64,000 nucleotides of DNA from NCBI GenBank assembly GCA_023957475.1, contig JAMLHA010000002.1, positions 32,465 to 96,464 on the forward strand, written 5' to 3'. A model generated the notes under the pieces. The model made no database searches and was not told the origin of the DNA. It was given only the letters and a program-made list of their open reading frames with translations. Below, piece after piece: positions 7,120 through 19,227 of this stretch. Made by a program: the position numbers and the translations under genes. The DNA is from Crocinitomicaceae bacterium. GTDB taxonomy: Bacteria > Bacteroidota > Bacteroidia > Flavobacteriales_D > Crocinitomicaceae. Each line of letters begins with the position of its first letter. The stretch's first letter is position 1.

Positions 7120-7773
7120 ATGGATAGCTCATTACTTATACAGAAAATAACTTCTTTTGTTAAATCGCAATATTGCGATATCGCATCTGGACATGAGTGG
7201 TATCACATTAATCGTGTGAAAAACAATGCACTACACCTCCAATCAATCGAAGGCGGTAACAAAACCATCATCGAAATAGCCGCCTTATTGCATGACATAT
7301 CCGATTACAAATTCAATGGTGGAGACGAATACCTTGGTGGAGACGTATCCTACAACGCTGTTATAGATTGTGGTGGATCAGAAGAATTAGCAACATTGAT
7401 TAAAGAAATTGTAAATAGCATATCTTACAAAGGAGCCAACGTTGCCGATACAACCACTTCCTTAGAAGCTAAAATTGTGCAAGATGCCGACCGATTAGAT
7501 GCGCTTGGAGCAATTGGTATAGCAAGAACATTTGCTTATGGAGGCTCCAAAGGAAGTCCAATTTACGATCCAACTATTCATTACCAATTACACGATAGTT
7601 TTGATAAGTATAAAAATGCAAAATCAACTTCTATTAATCATTTTTATGAAAAATTATTACTTTTGGGAGATAAAATGCATACAAACTCAGCTAAGTTAAT
7701 AGCTAAAGAAAGAACCAATTTTATGAAAGAATTCCTTTCTCATTTTTATGAAGAGTGGGAGTGTAAGTATTAA
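7120..7773 (+). CDS. HD-domain phosphohydrolase (YedJ-like)
   Basis: GHEWYHINRV, ALLHDISD, QDADRLDALGAIGIAR. Confidence 0.88.
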   Translation: MDSSLLIQKITSFVKSQYCDIASGHEWYHINRVKNNALHLQSIEGGNKTIIEIAALLHDISDYKFNGGDEYLGGDVSYNAVIDCGGSEELATLIKEIVNSISYKGANVADTTTSLEAKIVQDADRLDALGAIGIARTFAYGGSKGSPIYDPTIHYQLHDSFDKYKNAKSTSINHFYEKLLLLGDKMHTNSAKLIAKERTNFMKEFLSHFYEEWECKY

Positions 7774-7775
7774 TT

Positions 7776-8726
7776 ATGTTGGATAGAGAACTAGCTTTGG
7801 GAATAGATATTGGCGGTACTAATACAGTATTTGCTATTGTAGATAGTGAAGGAAACATTCATTTCGAAAAATCGATTAAAACGAAAGATTTTAAGCAACC
7901 AGAGGATTTGGTGAATGAAATATACAACCAGTTACAAAAAAACTCATTGCTTCAAAATATTATTGGAATAGGTGTTGGAGCTCCCAATGGGAATCCTTTT
8001 AATGGAAATATTGAGTTTGCACCAAATTTACCTTGGAAAGGAATAATACCCTTGGCTTCAATCATTGAAAAAAAGTTTAATAAAAGCTGTAAAGTAGATA
8101 ATGATGCCAATATTGCTGCTTTAGGAGAAATGAAATTTGGAGTGGCCAGAGGGTTAAAAAATTTCGTTACCATTACATTAGGTACAGGATTGGGAAGTGG
8201 AATAGTTGTTGATGGAAGAGTGGTATATGGAGAAAATGGCTTTGCAGGTGAGTACGGACATATTCGAGTAGAGAAGGAGGGACGAGTATGCGGTTGTGGT
8301 AGAAAAGGGTGCTTAGAAACCTATGTTTCTGCAACAGGTGTAGTGAGAAGTATTCGTGAGCATGACTCAAAAAACCAAGCAAGTTCTATCTTACAAACAA
8401 TTGCTCATCCAACTAGTTTAGATGTTGTAAATGCAGCTAAGGATGGCGATAAGTTTGCAACAGAAATATTGGATTTCACAGCAAAAACATTAGGAGAATC
8501 TTTAGCAGATTTTATGTGTTTTTCCAACCCCAAAGCTTTTGTATTGTTTGGAGGTTTGGCAAAAATTGGAACAAGTTTCGCCGAAAATGTAGAAAAATAC
8601 ATGAATGATGCGGCTTTAAATATTTATAAAGGCAAAGCAAAAGTTTTAGTTTCTGATTTACACGATAAAAATGTAGCGCTTTTAGGAGCTGCGGCCTTGG
8701 TGTTTCACGAACTGAAATATTCTTAG
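7776..8726 (+). CDS. ROK family sugar kinase (glucokinase-like)
   Basis: GIDIGGT, NDANIAALGE, TLGTGLGSG, GEYGH, CGCGRKGCLE. Confidence 0.92.
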   Translation: MLDRELALGIDIGGTNTVFAIVDSEGNIHFEKSIKTKDFKQPEDLVNEIYNQLQKNSLLQNIIGIGVGAPNGNPFNGNIEFAPNLPWKGIIPLASIIEKKFNKSCKVDNDANIAALGEMKFGVARGLKNFVTITLGTGLGSGIVVDGRVVYGENGFAGEYGHIRVEKEGRVCGCGRKGCLETYVSATGVVRSIREHDSKNQASSILQTIAHPTSLDVVNAAKDGDKFATEILDFTAKTLGESLADFMCFSNPKAFVLFGGLAKIGTSFAENVEKYMNDAALNIYKGKAKVLVSDLHDKNVALLGAAALVFHELKYS

Positions 8727-10963
8727 TTGATTTGCTTTTTTCATGCTTTGTTTTTTAAAGGAATGAAAGAGATCGCTTCGCTTGTTCAATAATTTAAAAA
8801 GTTCTTTAAATTTACAGTCATAAACAACAGTTAAATTTTTTAAACTCTTTAATCCTACGTTGTGATTTGCTTTCAATAATTTAAAAAGTTCTTTAAATTT
8901 ACAGTCATAAACAACTGGATCAATTCCTTGTAGTTTGCCATTTACGTTGTGATTTGCTTTCAATAATTTAAAAAGTTCTTTAAATTTACAGTCATAAACA
9001 ACGTCTGCTGTTGTATTTGTTTACGAAAATGGGTTGTGATTTGCTTTCAATAATTTAAAAAGTTCTTTAAATTTACAGTCATAAACAACTTTTTCATCTT
9101 GTTCCAATTTCTCATTTGAGTTGTGATTTGCTTTTTTCATGCTTTGTTTTTTAAAGGAATGAAAGAGATCGCTTCGCTTGTTCAATAATTTAAAAAGTTC
9201 TTTAAATTTACAGTCATAAACAACATATATTCAGCATCTTCACAACTACATTTTGTTGTGATTTGCTTTCAATAATTTAAAAAGTTCTTTAAATTTACAG
9301 TCATAAACAACGTTTGTTTGTGGTGATTCATGGCATACTGTGTTGTGATTTGCTTTCAATAATTTAAAAAGTTCTTTAAATTTACAGTCATAAACAACGC
9401 GTTAATTTCAGCTTGCGAACAAACACCAGTTGTGATTTGCTTTCAATAATTTAAAAAGTTCTTTAAATTTACAGTCATAAACAACATTATAAAGATGTTC
9501 GTATAATGAGCCTACGTTGTGATTTGCTTTCAATAATTTAAAAAGTTCTTTAAATTTACAGTCATAAACAACGATTTGCGCGAAAAAATGGGCTTAAAAT
9601 CAGTTGTGATTTGCTTTCAATAATTTAAAAAGTTCTTTAAATTTACAGTCATAAACAACTGTTTGTAAATGACACAACAGACAACTACGTTGTGATTTGC
9701 TTTCAATAATTTAAAAAGTTCTTTAAATTTACAGTCATAAACAACTTCAATGATTGCTTTTCGTGAGATGAAGCAGTTGTGATTTGCTTTCAATAATTTA
9801 AAAAGTTCTTTAAATTTACAGTCATAAACAACAAATTCTATCAAGACGATTGGTTTGAGTTTGTTGTGATTTGCTTTCAATAATTTAAAAAGTTCTTTAA
9901 ATTTACAGTCATAAACAACAATAATAACTTACTTTCACACCTTTACGATGTTGTGATTTGCTTTCAATAATTTAAAAAGTTCTTTAAATTTACAGTCATA
10001 AACAACTGGCTTTCAATCAACCCCTAACCGACAGGTGTTGTGATTTGCTTTCAATAATTTAAAAAGTTCTTTAAATTTACAGTCATAAACAACCTCCTCC
10101 TTTTTTCAAGTACATTAAAAACTGTTGTGATTTGCTTTCAATAATTTAAAAAGTTCTTTAAATTTACAGTCATAAACAACATTTTCAACGCCTTTGTTTT
10201 CAGATTTAGTGTTGTGATTTGCTTTCAATAATTTAAAAAGTTCTTTAAATTTACAGTCATAAACAACTAATCGTAACCGTGTGACGTAACTCTTTGTGTT
10301 GTGATTTGCTTTCAATAATTTAAAAAGTTCTTTAAATTTACAGTCATAAACAACATATCCTTTGCTATTTTATTTATAGCTAGTGTTGTGATTTGCTTTC
10401 AATAATTTAAAAAGTTCTTTAAATTTACAGTCATAAACAACTAAAGGAACTGTTATAGCATGGCAGTTCCTTGTTGTGATTTGCTTTCAATAATTTAAAA
10501 AGTTCTTTAAATTTACAGTCATAAACAACGCATCGAATGGATAATCCTTTCTTTCGCCTGTTGTGATTTGCTTTCAATAATTTAAAAAGTTCTTTAAATT
10601 TACAGTCATAAACAACATAGAAATGGCACGATTGCAAGCCGAAGCAGTTGTGATTTGCTTTCAATAATTTAAAAAGTTCTTTAAATTTACAGTCATAAAC
10701 AACCTGTTCATTTATTCATCAATGGCAAAATGGTTGTGATTTGCTTTCAATAATTTAAAAAGTTCTTTAAATTTACAGTCATAAACAACTTCCTTTTGCA
10801 CTTCGTTTTCGTTGGCTACGTTGTGATTTGCTTTCAATAATTTAAAAAGTTCTTTAAATTTACAGTCATAAACAACCTTAAAAATAAAGAAAATGTCAAA
10901 AGAATTGTTGTGATTTGCTTTCAATAATTTAAAAAGTTCTTTAAATTTACAGTCATAAACAAC
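8726..10963 (+). CRISPR. Type II-C CRISPR array, 25 repeats / 24 spacers
   Basis: 23 identical 57-nt repeats GTTGTGATTTGCTTTCAATAATTTAAAAAGTTCTTTAAATTTACAGTCATAAACAAC plus long variants at 8726-8828 and 9120-9224; spacers 30 nt (two of 29, one of 31). + orientation inferred from tracrRNA complementarity and the downstream terminator. Confidence 0.97.
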
Positions 10964-10998
10964 GTCAGGTGGTTGTAAGTCAGTGTTTATAAGAGATT

Positions 10999-11043
10999 GA
11001 GTTCTATTGTTCAGAAAACGAAAAATAGAACTCTTTTCTTTTT
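10999..11043 (+). terminator. Intrinsic terminator in the array leader (ends the + strand pre-crRNA)
   Basis: GAGTTCTATT/AATAGAACTC 10-bp stem followed by TTTTCTTTTTTT on the + strand only. Confidence 0.7.
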
Positions 11044-11072
11044 TTAGAACTGTAATTGTACAAAAATCAAAT

Positions 11073-11411
11073 TCAAAACAAGGTCAATTGTTGAGGTGGA
11101 GGAGTGGTTGCTTCGGGTTTTTTTCCGTAAAAAATTTCCATGTTGCCAAATTGTTTGTCTGTAATCGAAAAAACACCAACTTTTCCTTTATCAGGCAATA
11201 TCCGCTTGACATATTTTTTGTGTACGTCTGCATTTTCCACACTCTGGCAAAATCGCATGTAAATGGAAAACTGAAACATCATAAAACCACTTTCTAGTAA
11301 TTTTTTCCGAAACTGAGAGGCTTCTTTGCGTTCTTTCTTTGTTTCGGTCGGTAAATCAAATAATACAAATACCCACATTGTTCTGTATGCGTTAAATCGT
11401 GAATTATCCAT
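11073..11411 (-). CDS. cas2: CRISPR-associated endonuclease Cas2
   Basis: [25 protein letters not shown]; ATG at 11411 preferred over the TTG at 11426. Confidence 0.95.
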
Positions 11412-11418
11412 AAACGTG

Positions 11419-12309
11419 TTATTCAAATATAGGATAAGGAATTTTGCGAACTTCTTGGGAAAAACAACGGTTCAATCCTGCTGTTGTTGAACTTACAGCA
11501 TGAAACAAGGGGCGTGTCATTTTACCTATATTGACATCCAATTGCGGAAGTTTTAAAAGTTCTATTTTTTGCTCTTTTGTTAATTCGTCTGTTTTTTCCT
11601 TTTGAATCATTTGAAAAACAATCCAATCAACAAAAGGACGATACGGTTCCATAATATCATCGGCTAAACAAAATGCGTTGTATTGATTTTTGTGAAAAAG
11701 CCCAAATGATGGATGTAAGCCCGATGCTGTCAAAGCGCGAGCAACAATAGATCGCAATATGGCATAACCATAATTGAGTTGCGAATTGGGTGTGTTTCGT
11801 TCTTGTGATCGTATAAAATCTGTTCCATACAGTTGATTCCAGTAATGCCCTGCCGCTTGTCCCTCACAATTAGTGCTGTCATCACTGAGAACCTGTTCTC
11901 TCAACACATACAAACGCTGACTGTTGAGGTTTAATTTGTCCAATAGTAAAGCTTGATTGTGAATTTTAGCTTTGACAGTTTGTTGCCACAGTTGCTTTTT
12001 GAGTGGCGCACTTGCTTCCACTTGCGTTTTCATTACTTTGGTTTGTAATGTATTTGCATCAAAAGGAAGAAATAGACCGCTTGGCATGTAGTTTTTATCA
12101 CATGAAACCAATGCGATGTTTTCACTCATAAAAGCTTCTAAAACAGCCGTAGTTAGTGTGATTTGTGGATTTTCCAAAACAACCATTCCCAAATCCATGA
12201 TAGGAACGGAATGTTTGGTTCTGCTATCATCTTTGAGTTCTACTATAAGTTGGTTGTTTTGAACGCTCAGATGAGCAGGATTGCTGAAGTGAAGAGTGCG
12301 TTTTACCAT
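11419..12309 (-). CDS. cas1: Type II CRISPR-associated endonuclease Cas1
   Basis: [36 protein letters not shown]; no cas4 or csn2 in locus, so II-C. Confidence 0.96.
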
Positions 12310-12312
12310 TGT

Positions 12313-12339
12313 AAATAGTTTAACGTTTGTAAACTATTT
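12313..12339. promoter_or_regulatory. 10-bp inverted repeat directly upstream of the cas1 start
   Basis: AAATAGTTTA-N7-TAAACTATTT, 3 nt from the ATG. Confidence 0.5.
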
Positions 12340-12370
12340 TACCGGTATTAAATGAAAAGGTTACGTTTTC

Positions 12371-12799
12371 TTATTGATTTTTAATGAGTTGAACAGTTTG
12401 TTGGAGTTCGTCTAATCGTTTTTGATTGATAGAATAACCTTGTACTAAAACATCTTTTAGTTTTTGAGTTGCCCATTGACGAAATTGAGTACCTCGTTTT
12501 GAGTTAATTCGATAGCCAACAGATAAGATGGCGTCTAAATTGTACAATTTTACCTTTCTGTTTACTATGCGTTTTCCTTCTTTTTGAACTAACGAGGAAT
12601 ACTCGGTAGTTGCATTTTCTTCTAACTCTTCTTCTCTATATATATTTTTTAGATGCAAGCTTATAGTATCTGTGTCTTTATCGAATAACTCTGCCATCTG
12701 CTTTTGAGTGAGCCAAATCGTTTCTCTATCTAAATTCACTTGAATTTCTGTTCCCGTTTGAGTTTTATATATTTTTATTTCTTTTCCTCTTTTTTGCAT
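12371..12799 (-). CDS. RhuM-family protein, N-terminal DNA-binding-like domain only (142 aa)
   Basis: ETIWLTQKQMAELF, YNLDAILSVGYRINSKRGTQFRQWAT; ends shortly after, no Fic/Doc domain. Confidence 0.82.
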   Translation of the reverse strand: MQKRGKEIKIYKTQTGTEIQVNLDRETIWLTQKQMAELFDKDTDTISLHLKNIYREEELEENATTEYSSLVQKEGKRIVNRKVKLYNLDAILSVGYRINSKRGTQFRQWATQKLKDVLVQGYSINQKRLDELQQTVQLIKNQ

Positions 12800-12804
12800 A
12801 AGTC

Positions 12805-13104
12805 TTAGTTTACTCGGTAGCTGACTGATAATATAGCATCTAAATTGTAGTATTCAACCTGTTTAGTTTGTGTTTTCCTCTGTATAGCACCATGTTGAGT
12901 GGTATGTGCATTTTTTGCACATACCACTTTTTCTTCTAATTCTTCCGTTTTGAAAATGTTATTTATATGTTTGGTAATCAAAGTTCTATCTCGCTGAAAT
13001 AAATCTGCAATTTGTTGTTGGGTTAACCAAAAGGTTTCATTATCAAATTTCATATTAATTTGAGTTTGATTGTCGGAAGTCTGGTAGATGATGATTTTGT
13101 TCAT
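12805..13104 (-). CDS. Second, shorter RhuM-family paralog (99 aa), possibly pseudogenized
   Basis: ETFWLTQQQIADLF, YYNLDAILSVSYRVN then stop in the middle of the conserved YRVNS..TQFR motif. Confidence 0.72.
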   Translation of the reverse strand: MNKIIIYQTSDNQTQINMKFDNETFWLTQQQIADLFQRDRTLITKHINNIFKTEELEEKVVCAKNAHTTQHGAIQRKTQTKQVEYYNLDAILSVSYRVN

Positions 13105-13107
13105 TAA

Positions 13108-16100
13108 TTATGCTCTTGAGATGTTGCCTAATCTATCAACTTTGAGTTTGATGCAAATTTCTTTTTCTGAAGTAAATTCAATCTTATTCAATTGAGTAAA
13201 TTCTGTTTTATTCACAATAGCTGTAGAAACTGATTGTGGAATGCCATATAATCGTCCTCCCGTAAAACTCACAACTTTATAAATATTCTTAATACCTATT
13301 TCAGCATCATTCCCACTTGGCACATACACCAAATCATTCGGCGAAAGGCTGAACAACAAACGATGACCTTTTTCATTCAACTCAGGAACAGATGTCAAAC
13401 CTTGTTTTTGTCGTTCGATAACCACATTCAAAGGAATGGTGTCATAACTGCGTTTTCCGTCTTTGTCGGCGTAGATTCCGAAAAACAGATTCGTGCCTTT
13501 TGCCGCCTCTACATATTTTTCTGTTTTGTTGCCTGTTTCTCCTAATGCAAACTTACTTCCTTGTTCAAAAACCCTCACTTTCAGAATCGGCTGATGTTGT
13601 TTTCCGTCGTTATACAAAGTGATGCTTTGGTTCATTTCTTCGATTCCTTCGGGTGAAAATGCGATTTCAGGATTACCACCTTTTACTTTTAAATAATTCA
13701 ATAAAATTTTCTGAATTCCAGTGTCGGTAATCGAAGAAATTAATTTTTCGTTGAAAGAACTATCTAAACTTTTTCTTGTTGCGGTTAGAATTTTCCCTTT
13801 GGCAACTTTTATTCTGTCTAATTGCACTTTTCCCGAAACGGTTTCTTTATGCAACGGTTTCCTAATCGCCCAATTTGTTCCTTCTTGTTTTACAATTCCT
13901 TTTACTTTTTCGCCGTTTTTCTCGACATATTTTTCGTAATAATTGGTTGCTTTGTTGATGACACGAGTATTTTGTTTGAAACTTACCACGATACTTTCCA
14001 AAGCCTTTTTGGCATCGACAGTAAAGTTGTTCCAAGGTTTTAAAAAGTCTTTAAACGCTGTTTTTTCTTTTCCGTCTTTATCTCGATACGTTTCTTGTAT
14101 TCTCAATTTATGTTGTAAATCGTAGCGTTTCAAATCAGATTTTGCAGATTCGTTATTCAACAAATTAATGTGGTCACGAGTAGCGCACGCAATCACCAGA
14201 GCGTCCATTGCATGATGGCGATGGTCAATTCTTTTCTTTGAAAAACCTTTTGACAATTCAAGCGGAACAGTCGGTAAAAACTTCTGGTATTTTTCGTTCC
14301 AAGTTGTAAAATCAGTTGAATTGGTTAATTGATTCATTCGTTCAAAACGTGGTAAAATCAATTCGTTCCAAACTGCTTCTAATCCCCAGTCTAGTTTTAA
14401 ACGTGTGGTGATTTTCCCATTTCCAGGAAGTAAATTTTTAGAATTGTACCCATCATCGTTGCTTCCGTCTTTATCATCACGCACAATATTTGACAACAAG
14501 TTTGAAACATATTTGCTGATGTAACGTGTATCGTTCATTTGACGCTCAACCATTTTTTCAGGAATTTCTTCCATCAATAATTTGTTTCGTTTCGCACGAT
14601 TTTTAGCATAATGTTCTTTTACAAATTCTTCGTAATCCGCTATTTCAAGTATCTGAACAGCTTTGTTTCCAATGGTAACTTTTTCTCCGTGATGATTTTT
14701 GATGAATTCAAAACCAAGCTGTCTATCTTTCAGTTTGTTAACTTCAGCTTCACAAATCACTTTATTGTTAAATCCATCATCAAAAAATCGACTTTGTGGA
14801 ATGATATGTTCAATCTCATATTCGTGCGTAAAGAGCTTATTTAATGGAATGATTTGCCCTGTATAAGGTGATTTGTATTTTTGTTCTAACCAAAGTTTGT
14901 AGCGTTTTAAATCAGCACTTGAAGGTTGTGCCGTTTTGCTGATTTTAAGAATATCCTCATCAATTTCGGCTTCGGAACTCAATGCACCGTCTTCATAAAT
15001 TTTCAAAATTTCTTGTTGCATTGGCGAGTATGGACGAACATTTTCCACATTACTATCTAGAGCCATTTCTGCTAACAAAGCTTTAATGCGCAAATTGGTA
15101 TTTTCGTTTTCGGTAACCATGTTGGTTAACCTTTTTCGTTCATCAGCCGTATTTTTCATTTCACGACCTAATTCAATATGAATTTCAGAGAAGAAATCTT
15201 TAGCTCCGTTGCCATATTTGATCCAAATATCCTTTACTACACGTAATGTTTCTGTGATTACTTGCTCCACAATTGGGTTTCGTAAAGAGTGTTGTTTGAA
15301 CTCATTTAAAAAATCTTCCAAATCCTTAACTGAATTCCATTTGCCTGAAACAGATGCTTCGGAATGACGACCGTAAACAATGTATTGAGCCAACCACAAC
15401 GGCAATCCTTGGAAATCATTTTCAGATTTCAGATGATACTTTTCTGCTTTTTCACGGATTTTATTTTTGATGTTTTCATCGTATTCGCCTGTGATGATTT
15501 TCCCAATTCGGTCTTTTGAGCTTGTGTGAATTTCATTCCAATCCCAAGATTTCCCGAAACGCATCAAGGGTAACAATTTCTTAATTGCTTTTTCTGAAAA
15601 ACTGCCGTAATCACTTTTGAAAGGTGGAAATTTCTTGAAATTATCAAAGAAAGAATCTACATTCAGTTGATTTTTTTCTGCAAATTTCTTTAATGCTTTT
15701 TCGTATTCAATTTTATCATTTACAGAATAGATAATATGCCACAATGCCATTTCTTTATCAAAAGTCAAGAAATCCGCAGGAACATTCTCGGTTTTATCCA
15801 ATCTTGATTGAATTAAATATCTCGTTTCGTTGCACGGATAGGTTTTATCTTCCACATAATTCCAGCGGTATTTTTCGGTTTCCGCTTTCGGAACTTTCTT
15901 GATTTCTAATTTTCTTTTGAGCAAAAATTCGATTAATTGCTTTTGGTCAATTTCTTTTTTAGTATTCAAAAAATGCAATAATTCCTCCCAATCATTTTGA
16001 TTCGGCAAAAATTCATTGGTAACATTTACATCATCATCTTTTCGGTAAATAGCGAGATTTTGCATCCATTGCAATAACCTAAATTCCTGATAATAAGGAT

Positions 16101-17400
16101 TTGATTTTGAAACAACTTTTATAGGAAAAACAATACCCTCTTTTGATTTTCTACTCTCTAAGGAACAATTTGAAATGGAAGATTTTTGGCTACGCAAAGG
16201 TCGCTGATAAAAGATAATGTCATTCAAAAACAAATGCACAAAATCTTTCGCAGAAAGCAATTGCTGGTGTTGTTCATTGTTTCGATACAATTCTCGAACG
16301 CAATCCATTAACAAATTTTCATCTTGCAATTCCGAATGAAATTCTTTTTGTTTGGTAAGAATTTTAAAGAGTTCGTCTTTGTAAAATTTACGTTCAATCG
16401 TACGAACCAATTTTCCTTTTATTTTTTGTTTTGGATTTAATAAAAGGTTGTCGAAAATGTATGTCCCGACTGTTTTATTAGAGTTGCTAATATCTTTTTC
16501 TGATTTCTTTTTCAACAAAGTCCAATCATCAGCACTTGGTGCTCGAAAACTTCTTTTTACGCTTCCTTCTTTGTCTAATTTCTCCGTTCCGTCATCATTC
16601 AAATCGGTCGTAACAATAAATTCTTTGACTTTATCTTTCCAATCAAACAACTCCGTTTTACTTGAACGACGGTAAATCCAACCGTTTTCCAAATGCATTG
16701 AATACCAAGTCTCTCCTTTATTATTTTTAGTTTCATCCGCAACAACTTCAACCACTTTCAAAGAATGAAATTCTACTAATTTGTTCGGGTTTTCTTCTTC
16801 CTCCTCTCCACGCAATTGATAATAACCACGTTTCTGATTAAAATTCAGAATAATCCACGCCAATTCTTCTTTTTCAATTTTTTGAGTCAATGCTTTTTTA
16901 CGTAAATAGTAAATCGTCCAATCGTGAGGAATTAAACAATCATTGCCATTTTTATCTTTCAGAAATTCAGGTTGATATTCCTTAAAATCTTCCAACATTT
17001 CATAAAAAGAAGATTGAAACAAAAATCCATTTTGGGAATAAGCTAATTTAGGTTCTGTTTCAGGAATAAATTTTCCAAAGCGTTTGTCAAAATCAATTTG
17101 AGTATCATAATGTTCTGGCAAAAAACCTAACAAATGTAATACTCTGTGCAAACGCTCTCTTCTCAATAAATGGCGTTCTCTTAATCTACGAGTACCTCTG
17201 TACCCAGTACGTTCTGCTGTTTGAGAAACTGAATTTCCTTTGTCAAAGTCGCCCATAATCGCCGCATCCATCGGAATAATTCGACTTCCCATGCCGAGTA
17301 TCTCGCCTTGTTTATTTTCAAAGTCTTGTTGAACAAGTGCCCATCCTATCGAATTCGTTCCCAAATCCAATCCAAGTATTGTTTTATTTGTGTTTTCCAT
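13108..17400 (-). CDS. cas9: Type II-C Cas9 (large Bacteroidota type, 1430 aa)
   Basis: RuvC-I ILGLDLGTNSIGWA, Arg-rich bridge helix, HNH EIEHIIPQS...NKVIC, RuvC-III DHRHHAMDA; catalytic residues look intact. Confidence 0.97.
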   Translation of the reverse strand: MENTNKTILGLDLGTNSIGWALVQQDFENKQGEILGMGSRIIPMDAAIMGDFDKGNSVSQTAERTGYRGTRRLRERHLLRRERLHRVLHLLGFLPEHYDTQIDFDKRFGKFIPETEPKLAYSQNGFLFQSSFYEMLEDFKEYQPEFLKDKNGNDCLIPHDWTIYYLRKKALTQKIEKEELAWIILNFNQKRGYYQLRGEEEEENPNKLVEFHSLKVVEVVADETKNNKGETWYSMHLENGWIYRRSSKTELFDWKDKVKEFIVTTDLNDDGTEKLDKEGSVKRSFRAPSADDWTLLKKKSEKDISNSNKTVGTYIFDNLLLNPKQKIKGKLVRTIERKFYKDELFKILTKQKEFHSELQDENLLMDCVRELYRNNEQHQQLLSAKDFVHLFLNDIIFYQRPLRSQKSSISNCSLESRKSKEGIVFPIKVVSKSNPYYQEFRLLQWMQNLAIYRKDDDVNVTNEFLPNQNDWEELLHFLNTKKEIDQKQLIEFLLKRKLEIKKVPKAETEKYRWNYVEDKTYPCNETRYLIQSRLDKTENVPADFLTFDKEMALWHIIYSVNDKIEYEKALKKFAEKNQLNVDSFFDNFKKFPPFKSDYGSFSEKAIKKLLPLMRFGKSWDWNEIHTSSKDRIGKIITGEYDENIKNKIREKAEKYHLKSENDFQGLPLWLAQYIVYGRHSEASVSGKWNSVKDLEDFLNEFKQHSLRNPIVEQVITETLRVVKDIWIKYGNGAKDFFSEIHIELGREMKNTADERKRLTNMVTENENTNLRIKALLAEMALDSNVENVRPYSPMQQEILKIYEDGALSSEAEIDEDILKISKTAQPSSADLKRYKLWLEQKYKSPYTGQIIPLNKLFTHEYEIEHIIPQSRFFDDGFNNKVICEAEVNKLKDRQLGFEFIKNHHGEKVTIGNKAVQILEIADYEEFVKEHYAKNRAKRNKLLMEEIPEKMVERQMNDTRYISKYVSNLLSNIVRDDKDGSNDDGYNSKNLLPGNGKITTRLKLDWGLEAVWNELILPRFERMNQLTNSTDFTTWNEKYQKFLPTVPLELSKGFSKKRIDHRHHAMDALVIACATRDHINLLNNESAKSDLKRYDLQHKLRIQETYRDKDGKEKTAFKDFLKPWNNFTVDAKKALESIVVSFKQNTRVINKATNYYEKYVEKNGEKVKGIVKQEGTNWAIRKPLHKETVSGKVQLDRIKVAKGKILTATRKSLDSSFNEKLISSITDTGIQKILLNYLKVKGGNPEIAFSPEGIEEMNQSITLYNDGKQHQPILKVRVFEQGSKFALGETGNKTEKYVEAAKGTNLFFGIYADKDGKRSYDTIPLNVVIERQKQGLTSVPELNEKGHRLLFSLSPNDLVYVPSGNDAEIGIKNIYKVVSFTGGRLYGIPQSVSTAIVNKTEFTQLNKIEFTSEKEICIKLKVDRLGNISRA

Positions 17401-17495
17401 AGTTTCAATTATTGTATGTAAATGATCAGCTTCATTTAAGAATTTGAATATAATAAGAAATTTTTAAAAAATGTGTTTAGTATCAAAATAATTTC

Positions 17496-17503
17496 TATAT
17501 TTG
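17496..17503 (+). promoter_or_regulatory. Bacteroidota -7 promoter box for tracrRNA
   Basis: TATATTTG matches TAnnTTTG just upstream of the anti-repeat. Confidence 0.7.
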
Positions 17504-17505
17504 AA

Positions 17506-17588
17506 TATTGAAAGCAAATCACAATAAGGATTATTCCGTTGTGAAAACATTTGGGTTGCCTCTTGTCCACAATCAGGAGGTTTTTTTA
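17506..17588 (+). ncRNA. tracrRNA
   Basis: TATTGAAAGCAAATCACAA is the reverse complement of repeat nt 2-20; followed by TAAGGATTATTCCGTTGTGAAAAC nexus-like segment and a CCTCTTG/CAGGAGG hairpin with T7 tract. Confidence 0.9.
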
Positions 17589-17631
17589 TGCCCAAATGTT
17601 TCAAAATCCATGAAAATAGAAGTAGTTCAGC

Positions 17632-17665
17632 AAAAAAAACGAGGCATTAATTTATCTGCCTCGTT
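17632..17665 (-). terminator. Intrinsic terminator of the DEAD-box helicase gene
   Basis: AACGAGGCA/TGCCTCGTT 9-bp stem with T tract on the - strand. Confidence 0.8.
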
Positions 17666-17688
17666 CTTAGTTATAAATTTCTGTTTGT

Positions 17689-18888
17689 TCAATCAACAAA
17701 CGTAAAAGCAGTTCCTGTTTTTCCTGCTCGTCCAGTTCTTCCTATTCGGTGAATGTATGTATCAAAATCATTTGGAACTTGGTAGTTTACCACCAACGAA
17801 ACATTGTTTACGTCAATTCCACGAGCCGCAACATCGGTTGCTACCAATATTCGGATTGTTCCCTTTTTAAACTTATCAAGCGCGTTGACTCTATAATTCT
17901 GCGATTTATTTCCATGAATTTGATCCGATTTTATACCCGATTCATTGAGTTTTTTAGCTAAACGATTTGCCAAATGTTTGGTTTCTGTAAATAAAATAAC
18001 TTTGTCGTAATCGGTGTTTGAAAGAAGGTTTAACAGCATTTTGAATTTATCTTGTCCTTGTGGTACTTTGATAATATCTTGTTCCACATTCTTCGAGCTT
18101 TGATCTCCAGAATGTATCTCAACAATTAAAGGATTGCTAACTATTTCATTAATAATGGATTGTTGTTTTGGATCTTTGGTTGCAGAAAACAATAACGTTT
18201 GTTTACGTTGTTTCATCCCATTAATCAATTCTCGAATATCGCGAATAAACCCCATATCGAGCATTTTGTCAAATTCATCAAGTACCAATACTTCAAAACG
18301 ACTCATTTTTAAATACCCACGATTTTTTAAATCCAATAAGCGCCCTGGAGTCCCAATGATCAAATCGAAATAATTCGATAAACTTCGAATATCCTTTTCA
18401 ACATTTGTTCCACCAATATAGCATGCCGCTCTTAACTTTAAATTTTCGGCCAATTTTTTAAATTCATCATAAACTTGTAACGCAAGTTCTCTTGTTGGTA
18501 CAATGATTATCGATTGAAATTTAGCATCGTTATTGCGCATTAAATTTTCAAGTATAGGTATCAAAAACGCACCTGTTTTACCGGTTCCGGTGTTGGCAAT
18601 TCCAATTAAATTCGATCCATTTACCAATTGATCAAATGTTTTGTCTTGTATTTCAGTAGGAGTGATAAACCCCATTTTACGAATGTTTTCCTTTAGTTGT
18701 TGATGCAAGTTCAAGTCATCAAATCGTGTTTCTACTTGAGGAGCTCTTTCTAATAAAACCTCTGCTTTTTGTATGAGCAAATTGGGATTTAGCGTTGATT
18801 TCTTTTTATTTTTCTTAGGTTGACTAAAAATAATGGTATTATTTCCTTGTTTATTAACGGGTTTGTTTGCTTTTCTATTTCGTTGCAT
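17689..18888 (-). CDS. DEAD-box RNA helicase (DEFD variant)
   Basis: Q motif GFITPTEIQ, ANTGTGKT, PTRELA, DEFD, SAT, ARGID, HRIGRTGR. Confidence 0.93.
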   Translation of the reverse strand: MQRNRKANKPVNKQGNNTIIFSQPKKNKKKSTLNPNLLIQKAEVLLERAPQVETRFDDLNLHQQLKENIRKMGFITPTEIQDKTFDQLVNGSNLIGIANTGTGKTGAFLIPILENLMRNNDAKFQSIIIVPTRELALQVYDEFKKLAENLKLRAACYIGGTNVEKDIRSLSNYFDLIIGTPGRLLDLKNRGYLKMSRFEVLVLDEFDKMLDMGFIRDIRELINGMKQRKQTLLFSATKDPKQQSIINEIVSNPLIVEIHSGDQSSKNVEQDIIKVPQGQDKFKMLLNLLSNTDYDKVILFTETKHLANRLAKKLNESGIKSDQIHGNKSQNYRVNALDKFKKGTIRILVATDVAARGIDVNNVSLVVNYQVPNDFDTYIHRIGRTGRAGKTGTAFTFVD

Positions 18889-19227
18889 ATTTTTTGTTTT
18901 CTATCTCTTTAAGATAATTCATTTATTGATAGCAAGGGATTTTCCCAAACTATATCTATGCAGAAAACTGAATTTATTCAGCATCTGAGTGAACGATAAT
19001 TCATTGTATCGTTTTGTATAAAATTCCGAAAATCTGTTGTGAAAAAGAGAAAAGAGTTTTTCTTCTTTTGTTAGAAACGAATAGAAGGACACGTTCAAAT
19101 TCGTTTGTTTTCATGTCAGGTGGAGTGCCTGATATATATTCTTAATTTCAATAACAACTTCCGGCAGGTATTTCTTTGCTGGTTTATTTGTTCATCAATA
19201 GTTGCCTACCAATAAAGCTTGTTTCTG

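What the first reader, a model, noticed from the sequence alone, without database searches (positions are those of the whole stretch)
8726..9224. Two giant CRISPR repeats carry an identical 48-nt insert that contains a built-in anti-repeat mimic
Repeat 1 (8726-8828, 103 nt, also missing 2 nt near its 5' end) and repeat 5 (9120-9224, 105 nt) have TTTTTCATGCTTTGTTTTTTAAAGGAATGAAAGAGATCGCTTCGCTTG inserted after repeat nt 13. Its segment TGAAAGAGATCGC (9160-9172) aligns with the tracrRNA anti-repeat TGAAAGCAAATCAC with one gap and two A-to-G changes that keep G:U pairing. The repeat could therefore fold back over its own tracrRNA-binding end (GTGATTT with AGATCGC, CTTT with AAAG, CAT with ATG). 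Long insert-bearing repeats are known in type VI-B (Cas13b) arrays, and leader-repeat pairing that suppresses the extraneous crRNA is known in S. pyogenes II-A; I know of no equivalent in a II-C Cas9 array. Inference: a cis switch that silences specific guides (the glk-derived extraneous crRNA and spacer 4) or allows tracr-independent RNase III processing.
Basis: partly seen in the sequence, partly recalled or inferred. Interest (0 to 1): 0.85.

Follow-up and report, generated by a model that had tools for sequence, protein, structure and literature searches.

The report
Hairpin cassette inside old Cas9 repeats
Two repeats at the old end of this Cas9 CRISPR array carry a real 48-base hairpin insert that recurs, in either orientation, at the same spot in related arrays; it looks like a small dispersed repeat that landed in a tolerant part of the repeat, not a purpose-built switch.

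Summary
The type II-C array (window 8726-10963, 25 repeats) has 23 identical 57-nt repeats. R1 (103 nt) and R5 (105 nt) carry an identical 48-nt insert after repeat nt 13-15.

The predicted fold-back onto the tracrRNA-binding head appears only in this genome. It lowers predicted tracrRNA binding from about -15/-18 to -9/-13 kcal/mol without overturning it. It is absent from homologous inserts in relatives, including a locus whose Cas9 is 93% identical.

The conserved features are different:
- The cassette has a covarying closing stem.
- It sits at the same linker position of the repeat, between the tracrRNA-pairing head and the tail.
- It is found in 12 of 251 Crocinitomicaceae genomes (6 genera).
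- Wherever the array end is readable it lies in the first, oldest repeats, often in runs of 2-5, and in both orientations.
- Related sequences and other inserts match small dispersed hairpin repeats elsewhere in these genomes.

The architecture parallels the Cas13b (VI-B) "long direct repeats", but sequence homology to them was not shown.

Best reading: a small repeat module inserted at a permissive site, copied during spacer acquisition, and mildly weakening two guides.

The parts
7776..8726 (+). ROK-family glucokinase-like gene. Its TAG stop overlaps the first base of R1, so its last ~30 nt would be the 'extraneous' guide.
   Evidence: ORF list. Pfam ROK 7.5e-61. Same junction in 5 Logan assemblies.
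8726..8828 (+). R1: first (oldest, leader-distal, first-transcribed) repeat, long form, 103 nt. Head 8726-8738 lacks GT, cassette 8739-8786, tail 8787-8828.
   Evidence: independent assemblies.
9120..9224 (+). R5: internal long repeat, 105 nt. Intact head 9120-9134, cassette 9135-9182 (48/48 identical to the R1 copy), tail 9183-9224.
9135..9164 (+). Cassette hairpin in R5. Closing stem TTTCAT (9135-9140) / ATGAAA (9159-9164) around a T-rich loop with an inner CTTT/AAAG stem. The same hairpin lies at 8739-8768 in R1.
   Evidence: Folds. Covariation of this stem across 9 homologues: 90.9% of cells paired, 3 of 6 pairs with changes on both sides, 0/500 shuffles reach it.
9160..9172 (+). It consists of the 3' arm of the cassette stem plus the start of the cassette tail.
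   Evidence: Sequence. Fold-back P=0.51, p~0.035 against shuffles, and not conserved in homologues.
9165..9182 (+). Cassette tail GAGATCGCTTCGCTTGTT. It resembles the module GCTnCTTCGnGG found in other inserts and in dispersed repeats. The minus strand reads GCGAAGC.
   Evidence: Comparison by eye (inference). The nearby 22-mer in G077 matches the G143 insert at 20 of 22 positions.
8859..10963 (+). The other 23 repeats, all identical 57-mers (GTTGTGATTTGCTTTCAATAATTTAAAAAGTTCTTTAAATTTACAGTCATAAACAAC), with spacers 2-24.
10999..11045 (+). Terminator-like hairpin (AGTTCTATT...AATAGAACT) followed by a T-run on the + strand after the last repeat. It fits + strand transcription of the array towards cas2.
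   Evidence: Read. The scan tool did not list it, so this is by inspection.
11073..12309 (-). cas2 (11073-11426) and cas1 (11419-12309). The leader lies between cas2 and R25.
   Evidence: Pfam Cas2 3.8e-17, Cas1 1.2e-33.
13108..17400 (-). cas9, 1430 aa. No csn2 or cas4 is present, so the locus is type II-C.
   Evidence: Pfam RuvC_III, HNH_4 and Cas9-BH. Relatives.
17507..17590 (+). Putative tracrRNA: anti-repeat ATTGAAAGCAAATCACAAT, a nexus-like hairpin, and a terminator GCCTCTTGTCCACAATCAGGAGG + T7. It is preceded by TATATTTG, which fits the Bacteroidetes -7 box TAnnTTTG.
   Evidence: The promoter motif is from my own knowledge, and the RNA ends are not mapped.

Best explanation
R1 and R5 are 'long-repeat' alleles of the type II-C repeat.

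What the insert is. A 48-bp self-folding cassette sits in the linker between two parts of the repeat. The head (nt 1-15) pairs with tracrRNA. The tail (nt 16-57) precedes the next spacer. The cassette belongs to a family of small hairpin-forming repeat modules of Crocinitomicaceae genomes. These modules have entered this same linker several times, in both orientations.

How it spreads and is lost. Once in the leader-proximal repeat, a cassette is copied with the repeat at every spacer acquisition. That produces runs of long repeats. Later loss of the cassette restores the short repeat, which is then the one copied. Long repeats therefore survive only at the old end of the array. In this genome R2-R4 have either lost the cassette or come from recombination.

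What it does to the RNA. The cassette protrudes as a side hairpin at the distal end of the crRNA:tracrRNA duplex, where engineered single-guide RNAs carry their loop. That is why it is tolerated. Here its stem happens to extend onto repeat nt 4-9. Together with the 2-nt deletion in R1, this should make the two guides that end in a long repeat load less well. Those guides are the glk-derived extraneous guide and spacer 4. They are weakened, not switched off.

Shown: the anatomy, the recurrence, the two orientations, the covarying stem, and related copies outside arrays. Inferred: insertion as the origin, copying at acquisition, loss by excision, and the weakening of the two guides.
For: Position in the array:
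- Long repeats are the first repeats in every array whose distal end could be read. Runs: G009 R1-R2; G079 R1-R3; G139 R1-R5, then only short repeats; G338 R1-R2 plus a solitary older copy; G126; G115 R1; G031; G160, first four.
- The literature sets this polarity: II-C arrays add spacers at the last repeat and are transcribed from the first (PMC12080349; PMC13187072; PMC8092290).

Homology and structure:
- G000 vs G009, p<0.0005. G009 vs the reverse complement of G338, p=0.0005, against 0.76 in the same sense.
- The covariance model finds the cassette in 12 of 251 family genomes, 6 genera. It also finds the truncated G007 copy that was not used to build it.
- The closing stem covaries.

Tolerance:
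- The head (13-17 nt) is intact in all long repeats.
- In the co-fold, head:tracrRNA pairing is kept and the cassette is a side hairpin. Binding remains -9 to -13 kcal/mol.

Link to dispersed repeats:
- G338:C16 holds a copy outside any array that is 37/42 identical to the G000 cassette. G126:C30 holds another.
- G077 has a ~195-nt element in at least 5 copies. It contains a cassette-like segment (CM E=6.5e-5). Next to that segment is a 22-mer that matches the unrelated-looking G143 insert at 20 of 22 positions.
- The 26-mer around that 22-mer has 8 copies in G079.
- The G160 insert is an 18-nt palindrome that is dispersed in G143 and other genomes.
Against: - No copy of the cassette lies outside the array in G000 itself. 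In most genomes the strong copies are all inside arrays.
- No transposase or insertion mechanism was identified, and no clear target-site duplication.
- Insertion at almost the same nucleotide in both orientations could instead reflect survivorship of tolerated sites, or an unknown site-specific process.
- The interspersed pattern in G000 (long, 3 short, long) and in G143 needs an extra step: excision or recombination.
- The covarying stem could mean selection for an RNA function that I am under-weighting.
- The stem is weak as RNA: 6 A/U-rich pairs around a 20-27-nt loop, and it is absent from some MFE folds.
- No expression data were available.
Confidence: 0.5

Rival explanations
1. The cassette is a cis-acting RNA switch. 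Its anti-repeat mimic folds over the tracrRNA-binding head and silences the extraneous glk-derived guide and spacer 4. Alternatively it creates a tracrRNA-independent RNase III site.
For: - In G000 the head is predicted to pair with the cassette: P=0.51, and only 3.5% of shuffles reach that.
- Predicted tracrRNA binding drops by about 5-8 kcal/mol for R5.
- In G007 the mimic reads TGAAAGAAAT, even closer to the anti-repeat.
- Disabling the extra first repeat is a known need of II-C arrays (PMC12080349).
- The fold-back plus cassette stem gives about 18 imperfect base pairs.
Against: - tracrRNA pairing still wins in both MFE and ensemble.
- The mimic and the fold-back are absent in homologues from G009, G115, G338, G238 and G139.
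- The cassette is inverted in five arrays.
- Internal long repeats (R5 here, runs of 2-5 elsewhere) are not extra repeats.
Confidence: 0.15
2. The cassette is an adaptive element of the array's first repeats and works as a hairpin regardless of orientation. It could be an insulator or terminator against read-through from the upstream gene (here glk, which abuts R1 with no spacer DNA). It could also be a stabilising or protein-binding hairpin on the oldest, least expressed guides.
For: - It always sits at the first-transcribed end.
- The stem covaries.
- Upstream terminators and hairpins are documented anti-ecrRNA strategies in II-C.
- The G160 insert is a GC-rich palindrome followed by TTGTAATTTT, which is terminator-like.
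- There is no intergenic space for a glk terminator in G000.
Against: - The G000 hairpin is A/U-rich, with no U-tract directly after it. The terminator scan did not flag it.
- Cassette stems are marginally stable.
- VI-B long repeats lie at the same old end, but there that is the 3' end of the transcript. The shared feature is therefore age, not transcript position.
- Covariation in quasi-palindromes can arise by template-switch mutation without selection (my knowledge, not tested).
Confidence: 0.2
3. The long repeats are by-products of the Cas1-Cas2 integrase itself. This could be aberrant integration into the middle of a repeat, duplicating only the head. It could also be exchange between II-C and VI-B arrays served by the same integrase. 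In that case II-C long repeats and Cas13b long direct repeats would share one origin.
For: - The architecture is the same as the VI-B long DR: 5' and 3' repeat fragments around an insert, distal in the array (real sequences).
- The reverse complement of the VI-B repeat matches the II-C head at about 16 of 20 positions, by my own by-eye count. This puts both inserts at the equivalent position.
- The cassette tail loosely resembles repeat nt 6-15.
- Cas1-Cas2 integrates fragments in either orientation.
Against: - Sequence homology between the VI-B insert and the cassette is not supported: best pairwise p~0.08 and no profile-HMM hit, while the G238 control scores p=0.003.
- No VI-B-type array was found in G000, in the cassette-bearing genomes, or in 301 genomes of the order.
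- The cassette is a conserved sequence with relatives outside arrays, not a random spacer.
Confidence: 0.1
4. Assembly artefact: the second copy (R5) was created by mis-assembly of a repetitive array.
For:
- The R5 and R1 copies are 48/48 identical.
- Logan contigs collapse the array.
Against: - The R5 head has the GT that R1 lacks, so its junction k-mers are unique.
- R1 is confirmed in five runs.
- Interspersed or multiple long repeats occur in other assemblies.
Confidence: 0.03

Closest known systems
Long direct repeats of type VI-B (Cas13b) arrays (Smargon et al. 2017; bioRxiv 10.1101/092577)
   Same: - A repeat is split into its 5' and 3' fragments by an inserted sequence.
- It lies distal in the array.
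- It occurs in Flavobacteriales.
- The insert sits in a part of the guide handle that the effector tolerates; VI-B long-DR crRNAs are processed and active.
- Real examples are 72 nt with a 36-nt insert that forms a hairpin (ATTCGT/ATGAAT).
   Different: - The effector and the processing differ: Cas9 with tracrRNA, against Cas13b self-processing.
- No significant sequence similarity was found between the VI-B insert and this cassette.
- No VI-B array is present in these genomes.
- In VI-B the old end is the 3' end of the transcript; here it is the 5' end.
Mutated 'extra' first repeat and other anti-ecrRNA devices of type II-C arrays (Feussner et al. 2025, PMC12080349)
   Same: The first repeat is the oldest and is often mutated within its first 15 nt, which weakens tracrRNA pairing. 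R1 has a 2-nt deletion in the head plus the insert, and its predicted binding is weaker.
   Different: - That work describes point mutations, upstream terminators and hairpins in the extraneous guide. The terms insertion, inserted and indel returned no mention of inserts in repeats.
- Here internal repeats carry the cassette too, and runs of up to five occur elsewhere.
Leader-repeat hairpin of type II-A and type VI systems (Liao et al. 2022; PMC13187072)
   Same: An intramolecular helix competes with the pairing or folding the effector needs, which lowers production of an unwanted guide.
   Different: - There the competing strand is the leader, the helix is conserved and was tested.
- Here the competing strand lies inside the repeat, the predicted helix is specific to one lineage, and it is not dominant.
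Small dispersed palindromic repeats and MITE-like elements (REP/BIME-type, miniature inverted-repeat elements)
   Same: - Short size and hairpin-forming arms.
- Both orientations occur.
- Related copies are scattered in intergenic DNA of related genomes.
   Different: - No transposase, terminal inverted repeats or target duplication were defined.
- In most genomes the strong copies are confined to CRISPR repeats.
- Insertion at one precise repeat position is unexplained.
Engineered hairpin insertions in the sgRNA tetraloop (e.g. the MS2 loops of the Cas9-SAM design)
   Same: The extra hairpin is placed at the distal end of the repeat:anti-repeat duplex, where Cas9 tolerates it. Smargon et al. 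draw this parallel for long DRs.
   Different: This cassette is natural and lies in the crRNA strand of a dual-RNA guide. Tolerance by this Cas9 has not been tested.

Membership tests
Type II-C CRISPR-Cas locus | cas9, cas1 and cas2 only (no csn2 or cas4) | tested here: met
   Pfam hits for Cas9 domains, Cas1 and Cas2. The two extra ORFs between cas9 and cas1 are RhuM-like.
Type II-C CRISPR-Cas locus | tracrRNA with an anti-repeat complementary to the repeat's 5' part; array read towards cas2; degenerate repeat at the cas-distal end | tested here: met
   A 19-nt anti-repeat lies at 17507-17525 + with a downstream terminator. R1, at the cas-distal end, is the only repeat with a changed head. 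Transcription itself was not measured.
Type II-C CRISPR-Cas locus | Promoter inside each repeat (as in Neisseria and Campylobacter) | not testable with these tools
   The repeat tails share a box TAnnTTTAC, noted by eye.
VI-B-type 'long direct repeat' | Repeat = 5' fragment + intervening sequence + 3' fragment, alongside short repeats in one array | tested here: met
   Compare the VI-B examples.
VI-B-type 'long direct repeat' | Located at the leader-distal (old) end of the array | tested here: met
   R1 and R5 of 25 repeats. Same in G009, G079, G139, G338, G126, G115, G160 and G031.
VI-B-type 'long direct repeat' | Belongs to a Cas13b array, or is homologous to its insert | tested here: not met
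   This is a Cas9 array and the genome has no VI-B array. Insert similarity is not significant.
VI-B-type 'long direct repeat' | The long-repeat crRNA is processed and functional | not testable with these tools
   Needs RNA-seq and interference assays.
cis anti-repeat switch (leader-repeat-hairpin type) | The intramolecular helix outcompetes the functional pairing | tested here: not met
   tracrRNA pairing is retained in the MFE and remains -9 to -13 kcal/mol in the ensemble.
cis anti-repeat switch (leader-repeat-hairpin type) | The helix is conserved or covaries among related systems beyond chance | tested here: not met
   Fold-back P=0.00-0.17 in homologues, no better than shuffles. The mimic sequence is not conserved in G009 or G115.
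Small dispersed hairpin repeat / MITE-like element | Related copies at several unrelated genomic sites | tested here: inconclusive
   Met in relatives: G338:C16, G126:C30, the ~195-nt element of G077 in at least 5 copies, and 8 copies of the 26-mer in G079. Not met in G000 itself.
Small dispersed hairpin repeat / MITE-like element | Found in both orientations relative to the target | tested here: met
   sense in G000, G007, G009 and G115; inverted in G079, G098, G126, G139 and G338.
Small dispersed hairpin repeat / MITE-like element | Defined ends, target-site duplication, cognate transposase | not tested
   Only 1-2 nt of junction ambiguity and loose flanking similarity were seen. No transposase was searched for.

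The most novel reading that the evidence does not exclude
A family of small hairpin repeats specifically colonises the one permissive slot of Flavobacteriales class-2 CRISPR repeats. That slot is the linker after the tracrRNA-pairing head in II-C, and perhaps the loop of Cas13b repeats. The repeats then spread inside arrays by riding on Cas1-Cas2 repeat duplication and change how strongly individual guides are used. This would be a CRISPR-repeat-resident mobile element. It would also be nature's own version of the aptamer slot used in engineered guide RNAs.
Probability: 0.2. Interest if true: 0.8.

Novelty: new variant of a known kind. Interest (0 to 1): 0.55.

Why it matters
Long, insert-bearing repeats were reported for Cas13b arrays in 2017, and I found no explanation of them in the library searched. 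This work shows the same architecture is common in Cas9 (II-C) arrays of one bacterial family. The insert is a conserved cassette with a covarying stem. It occurs in both orientations at one repeat position, and it has relatives among dispersed genomic repeats.

If the inferences hold, three things follow:
- CRISPR repeats have a defined slot that tolerates extra RNA structure, which is useful for guide engineering with II-C Cas9s.
- This Cas1-Cas2 can copy repeats of 47 to about 105 bp. That bears on the open question of how one integrase serves arrays with different repeat lengths (raised in PMC8092290).
- Small repeats can invade arrays and weaken particular guides.

It also warns CRISPR-finding software that old-end repeats may be twice the normal length.

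Tried and rejected
- Rfam scan of 7500-19000 at E<=1: no known RNA family or ribozyme in the insert.
- Promoter/terminator scan: nothing at the insert.
- Exact-pattern scans for the insert: only the Fluviicola MAG G007 in genome contigs and nothing in metagenome contigs.
- Second metagenome scan with the head+cassette junction: 34 hits, essentially all chance or non-CRISPR.
- Look-up of a spurious ORF spanning R5: not on record.
- Idea that the cassette is the core of a Cas13b repeat. It was prompted by repeats recalled from memory, and only the PspCas13b repeat could be confirmed in papers. No VI-B arrays were found in the relevant genomes or in 301 genomes of the order. Tests against real VI-B long repeats from PMC13187072 Dataset EV1 were not significant. 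It is kept only as an architectural parallel.
- Pattern GGWATNNAAGAGATCGCT as a marker of dispersed copies: mostly chance hits in a conserved coding gene. Only G338:C16 and G126:C30 extend to real cassette similarity.
- Weak covariance-model hits in G373 and G499 look like A/T-rich chance matches.
- Conserved synteny as an explanation for the shared terminal repeat: rejected, because the G007 flank maps to other contigs of G000.
- In-repeat promoter reasoning (-33 TTG / -7 box) was explored by eye. It was not consistent enough across repeat lengths to use.
- Earlier notes of this scan on kilobase 'mega-spacers' do not concern inserts within repeats.


Full report
WHAT IS THERE

The window carries a complete type II-C locus on the minus strand.
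- cas9 lies at 17400..13108 (1430 aa; RuvC_III, HNH and bridge-helix domains).
- Two short RhuM-like ORFs follow, then cas1 and cas2.
- A putative tracrRNA lies upstream of cas9 on the + strand. Its anti-repeat ATTGAAAGCAAATCACAAT is at 17507-17525, followed by a stem-loop and a T7 terminator.

The array runs from 8726 to 10963. Its + strand is the crRNA sense, because the repeat's 5' part pairs with the anti-repeat. A hairpin plus T-run on the + strand follows the last repeat (by inspection).

The array has 25 repeats and 24 spacers of 29-31 nt. Twenty-three repeats are identical 57-mers.
- R1 (8726-8828) is 103 nt. Its first base is the G of the stop codon of a ROK glucokinase-like gene.
- R5 (9120-9224) is 105 nt.
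- Both contain the same 48 nt after repeat nt 13-15. R1 also lacks GT at positions 4-5.
- The insert occurs nowhere else in the 3.14-Mb genome, which has only this one CRISPR array.

IS IT REAL?

Five Logan assemblies from at least three studies contain the identical glk-R1 junction, with the deletion and the insert. Two of them collapse the array, as expected for such contigs.

R5 could not be checked. However, the R5 head has the GT that R1 lacks. Its junction is therefore unique sequence that cannot be produced by threading through R1 (inference).

The segment TGAAAGAGATCGC (9160-9172) does align with the anti-repeat as described.

Folding:
- RNA folding of R5 alone gives a helix in which repeat nt 4-9 pair with AGATCGC. 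This helix stacks on the cassette's own stem (MFE -16.3 kcal/mol).
- The probability that nt 1-15 pair with the insert is 0.51. Composition-matched shuffles average 0.16, and 3.5% of them reach 0.51.

With tracrRNA:
- In the MFE, R5 nt 1-13 stay paired to the anti-repeat. The cassette forms a side hairpin, and TCAAT re-pairs with the tracrRNA 5' end.
- Ensemble binding free energies are -14.6 to -17.9 kcal/mol for short repeats. They are -9.2 to -9.8 for spacer 4 + R5 and -13.0 for the glk-derived guide + R1.

The prediction is therefore a weaker interaction, not a switch. Kinetics and Cas9 binding are not modelled.

RELATIVES CHANGE THE PICTURE

The genus is Fluviicola (record title).

Cas9-guided and pattern-guided sampling of the family found long repeats in many arrays:

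| Genome | Relationship | Long repeats | Insert |
|---|---|---|---|
| G007 | same genus, Cas9 90% | first repeat; contig ends inside it | homologous; flanking genes not syntenic with G000 |
| G009 | same genus, Cas9 67% | R1-R2 | homologous, 55 nt |
| G115 | other genus, Cas9 93% | R1 | homologous |
| G079, G098, G139, G126, G338 | three other genera | runs of 2-5 first repeats | 46-50 nt |
| G031 | other genus | R1 plus a decayed older copy | cassette-like, 48 nt |
| G238 | another family | all visible repeats, ~90 nt | cassette-like |
| G160 | other genus | first four repeats | unrelated 18-nt GC palindrome |
| G143 | other genus | at least four, interspersed with short | unrelated 22 nt |
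| G003, G149 | same genus; other genus of the family | none | none |

In every array whose end is visible, the long repeats are the cas-distal ones. The literature identifies these as the oldest and first-transcribed repeats of II-C arrays.

A covariance model of the cassette finds it in 12 of 251 family genomes from 6 genera. Cas9 matches (most of them distant) were found in about a quarter of a separate family sample (37 of 151).

WHAT IS CONSERVED

The mimic is not conserved.
- In G009 the corresponding segment is TGAAAACGCCTGAC. In G115 it is TGAAAACGCCTTCGGC.
- Fold-back probabilities in G009, G338, G238, G143 and G160 are 0.00-0.17. G079 and G031 reach 0.30-0.35. None is better than shuffles.

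Three things are conserved.
1. Position. The cassette always follows repeat nt 15-17. That is the end of the 15-19-nt stretch that pairs with tracrRNA.
2. A closing stem that changes sequence but keeps complementarity. The variants are TTTCAT/ATGAAA (G000), ATTTAT/ATAAAT (G009), ATGCAT/ATGCAT (G338), ATGAAT/ATTCAT (G079, G139) and ATAAAT/ATTTAT (G126). On the alignment, 90.9% of cells pair, 3 of 6 pairs have changes on both sides, no shuffle of 500 reaches the covariation score, and slid registers give 22-52% pairing.
3. A loop motif, TTTTCAGCGGTAT in G009, and a tail of the form GCTnCTTCGnGG.

The cassette is inverted relative to the repeat in G079, G098, G126, G139 and G338.
- G009 matches the reverse complement of G338 with p=0.0005, but the same sense only with p=0.76. 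The two share a 13-mer.
- A sense-specific RNA mimic therefore cannot be the cassette's general function.
- As RNA the stems are weak, and some are missing from MFE folds.

WHERE THE INSERTS COME FROM

In most genomes the strong copies lie only in arrays. Related sequences do exist elsewhere:
- G338:C16 has a solitary copy 37/42 identical to the G000 cassette, with no repeat around it. G126:C30 has another.
- G077 carries a ~195-nt element in at least five copies. It contains a cassette-like segment (CM E=6.5e-5). About 25 nt upstream of that segment lies ACCTTCGGTGCTGCTTCGCGG, which matches the 22-nt G143 insert at 20 of 22 positions.
- The 26-mer around it has eight copies in G079.
- The G160 palindrome is scattered in G143 and other genomes.

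By eye, the cassette tail resembles the 3' half of that dispersed module. On the opposite strand these tails read as C-GNA-G mini-hairpins (GCGAAGC in G000). This last point rests on my own knowledge and was not tested.

Taken together, different inserts in the same repeat slot look like modules of small dispersed hairpin repeats.

HOW I THINK IT WORKS

1. A small repeat module entered the linker of a II-C repeat, on independent occasions in the two orientations. Alternatively only linker insertions survive, because head and tail stay intact.
2. When the affected repeat was next to the leader, each spacer acquisition copied it. This explains runs such as G139 R2-R5, which are identical to each other. 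It implies that this Cas1-Cas2 defines the repeat by its ends rather than by a fixed length.
3. Loss of the cassette restored the short repeat, which has been copied since. Long repeats therefore remain only at the old end.
4. In G000, R2-R4 lost the cassette or were brought in by recombination.
5. At the RNA level the cassette is a side hairpin at the position of an sgRNA loop. In G000 it also competes modestly with tracrRNA. The glk-derived guide and spacer 4 are therefore probably used less.

Steps 1-4 are inferences from anatomy. Nothing was measured.

COMPARISON WITH WHAT IS KNOWN

The closest precedent is the long direct repeat of Cas13b arrays, described as 5' and 3' repeat fragments around an intervening sequence. 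It is distal in the array, and it is processed and active.
- Real examples from Dataset EV1 of PMC13187072 are 72 nt with a 36-nt hairpin-forming insert.
- In the common leader frame, the VI-B insert sits at the equivalent repeat position. II-C sense equals VI-B antisense, which fits PMC8092290.
- I could not show sequence homology. The best pairwise p is ~0.08 and the profile HMM gives no hit, while the G238 control scores p=0.003.
- None of these genomes has a VI-B array.

For II-C, Feussner et al. 2025 describe mutated first repeats, upstream terminators and guide-trapping hairpins. A term search of that paper found no mention of inserts in repeats. No paper in the searched library follows up on long repeats.

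VERDICT

The proposed switch is at best a local side effect. The underlying phenomenon is a recurrent, two-orientation hairpin cassette in the oldest repeats of Cas9 arrays, linked to dispersed repeats. It is a new variant of a known kind and moderately interesting.

Noticed in passing
window 12371-13104 (minus strand): Two short RhuM-family ORFs (142 and 99 aa) sit between cas9 and cas1. They are also present in the Logan contig of another strain (L026). Pfam Virulence_RhuM scores 2e-24 for the 142-aa ORF; the 99-aa ORF scores 1.9e-05, below the curated cutoff.
   Followed up: partly
window 8859-10963: The normal repeat is 57 nt. That is 10 nt longer than the 47-nt repeats of most relatives, and the extra ATAATTTAAA lies at the same linker position as the cassette. 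G115 and G160 also have repeats of about 57 nt. The linker seems generally tolerant of length changes.
   Followed up: partly
L077 1771-2925 (G338:C34): A solitary, degenerate long repeat lies about 1.07 kb beyond the first repeat of the array, with unannotated non-repeat DNA in between. It looks like a kilobase-sized 'spacer' at the old end, as noted for other genomes in earlier findings of this scan.
   Followed up: no
L138 1440-1800 (G077:C25) and G077 contigs C19, C10, C7: A ~195-nt intergenic element is present in at least five copies. It is built of short modules: ACCTTCGGTGCTGCTTCGCGG, a cassette-like segment, and the hairpin TTTTCATTTCACTGCGTTGCATGAAAA. It is an undescribed MITE-like repeat family of Crocinitomicaceae.
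   Followed up: partly
L076 1395-1465 (G031:C1): An older decayed repeat upstream of R1 carries a second, different hairpin insert (TCCGACTTTTTCAGTCGGA) inside its tail. Repeat tails can therefore take insertions as well.
   Followed up: no
L079 1-480 (G238:C23): In this array every visible repeat is ~90 nt and carries a cassette-like hairpin (TTTCACGA/TCGTGAAA). The repeat ends in GTTCCAAC, which is like the reverse complement of Cas13b repeat starts. The associated effector was not identified because the contig starts inside the array.
   Followed up: no
L026 1165-1175 compared with window 10964-10972: The leader-side flank differs between strains (GTCGTGTGG in SRR22348915/7, GTCAGGTGG in the window). 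Several strains of this species are therefore present in public runs, and their arrays could be compared.
   Followed up: no
L024 1-40 (G007:C59) and L002 1-54 (G007:C31): In the G007 MAG one contig ends inside the tracrRNA and another inside the long first repeat. The array itself is missing from the assembly, so MAGs systematically lose this kind of feature.
   Followed up: no
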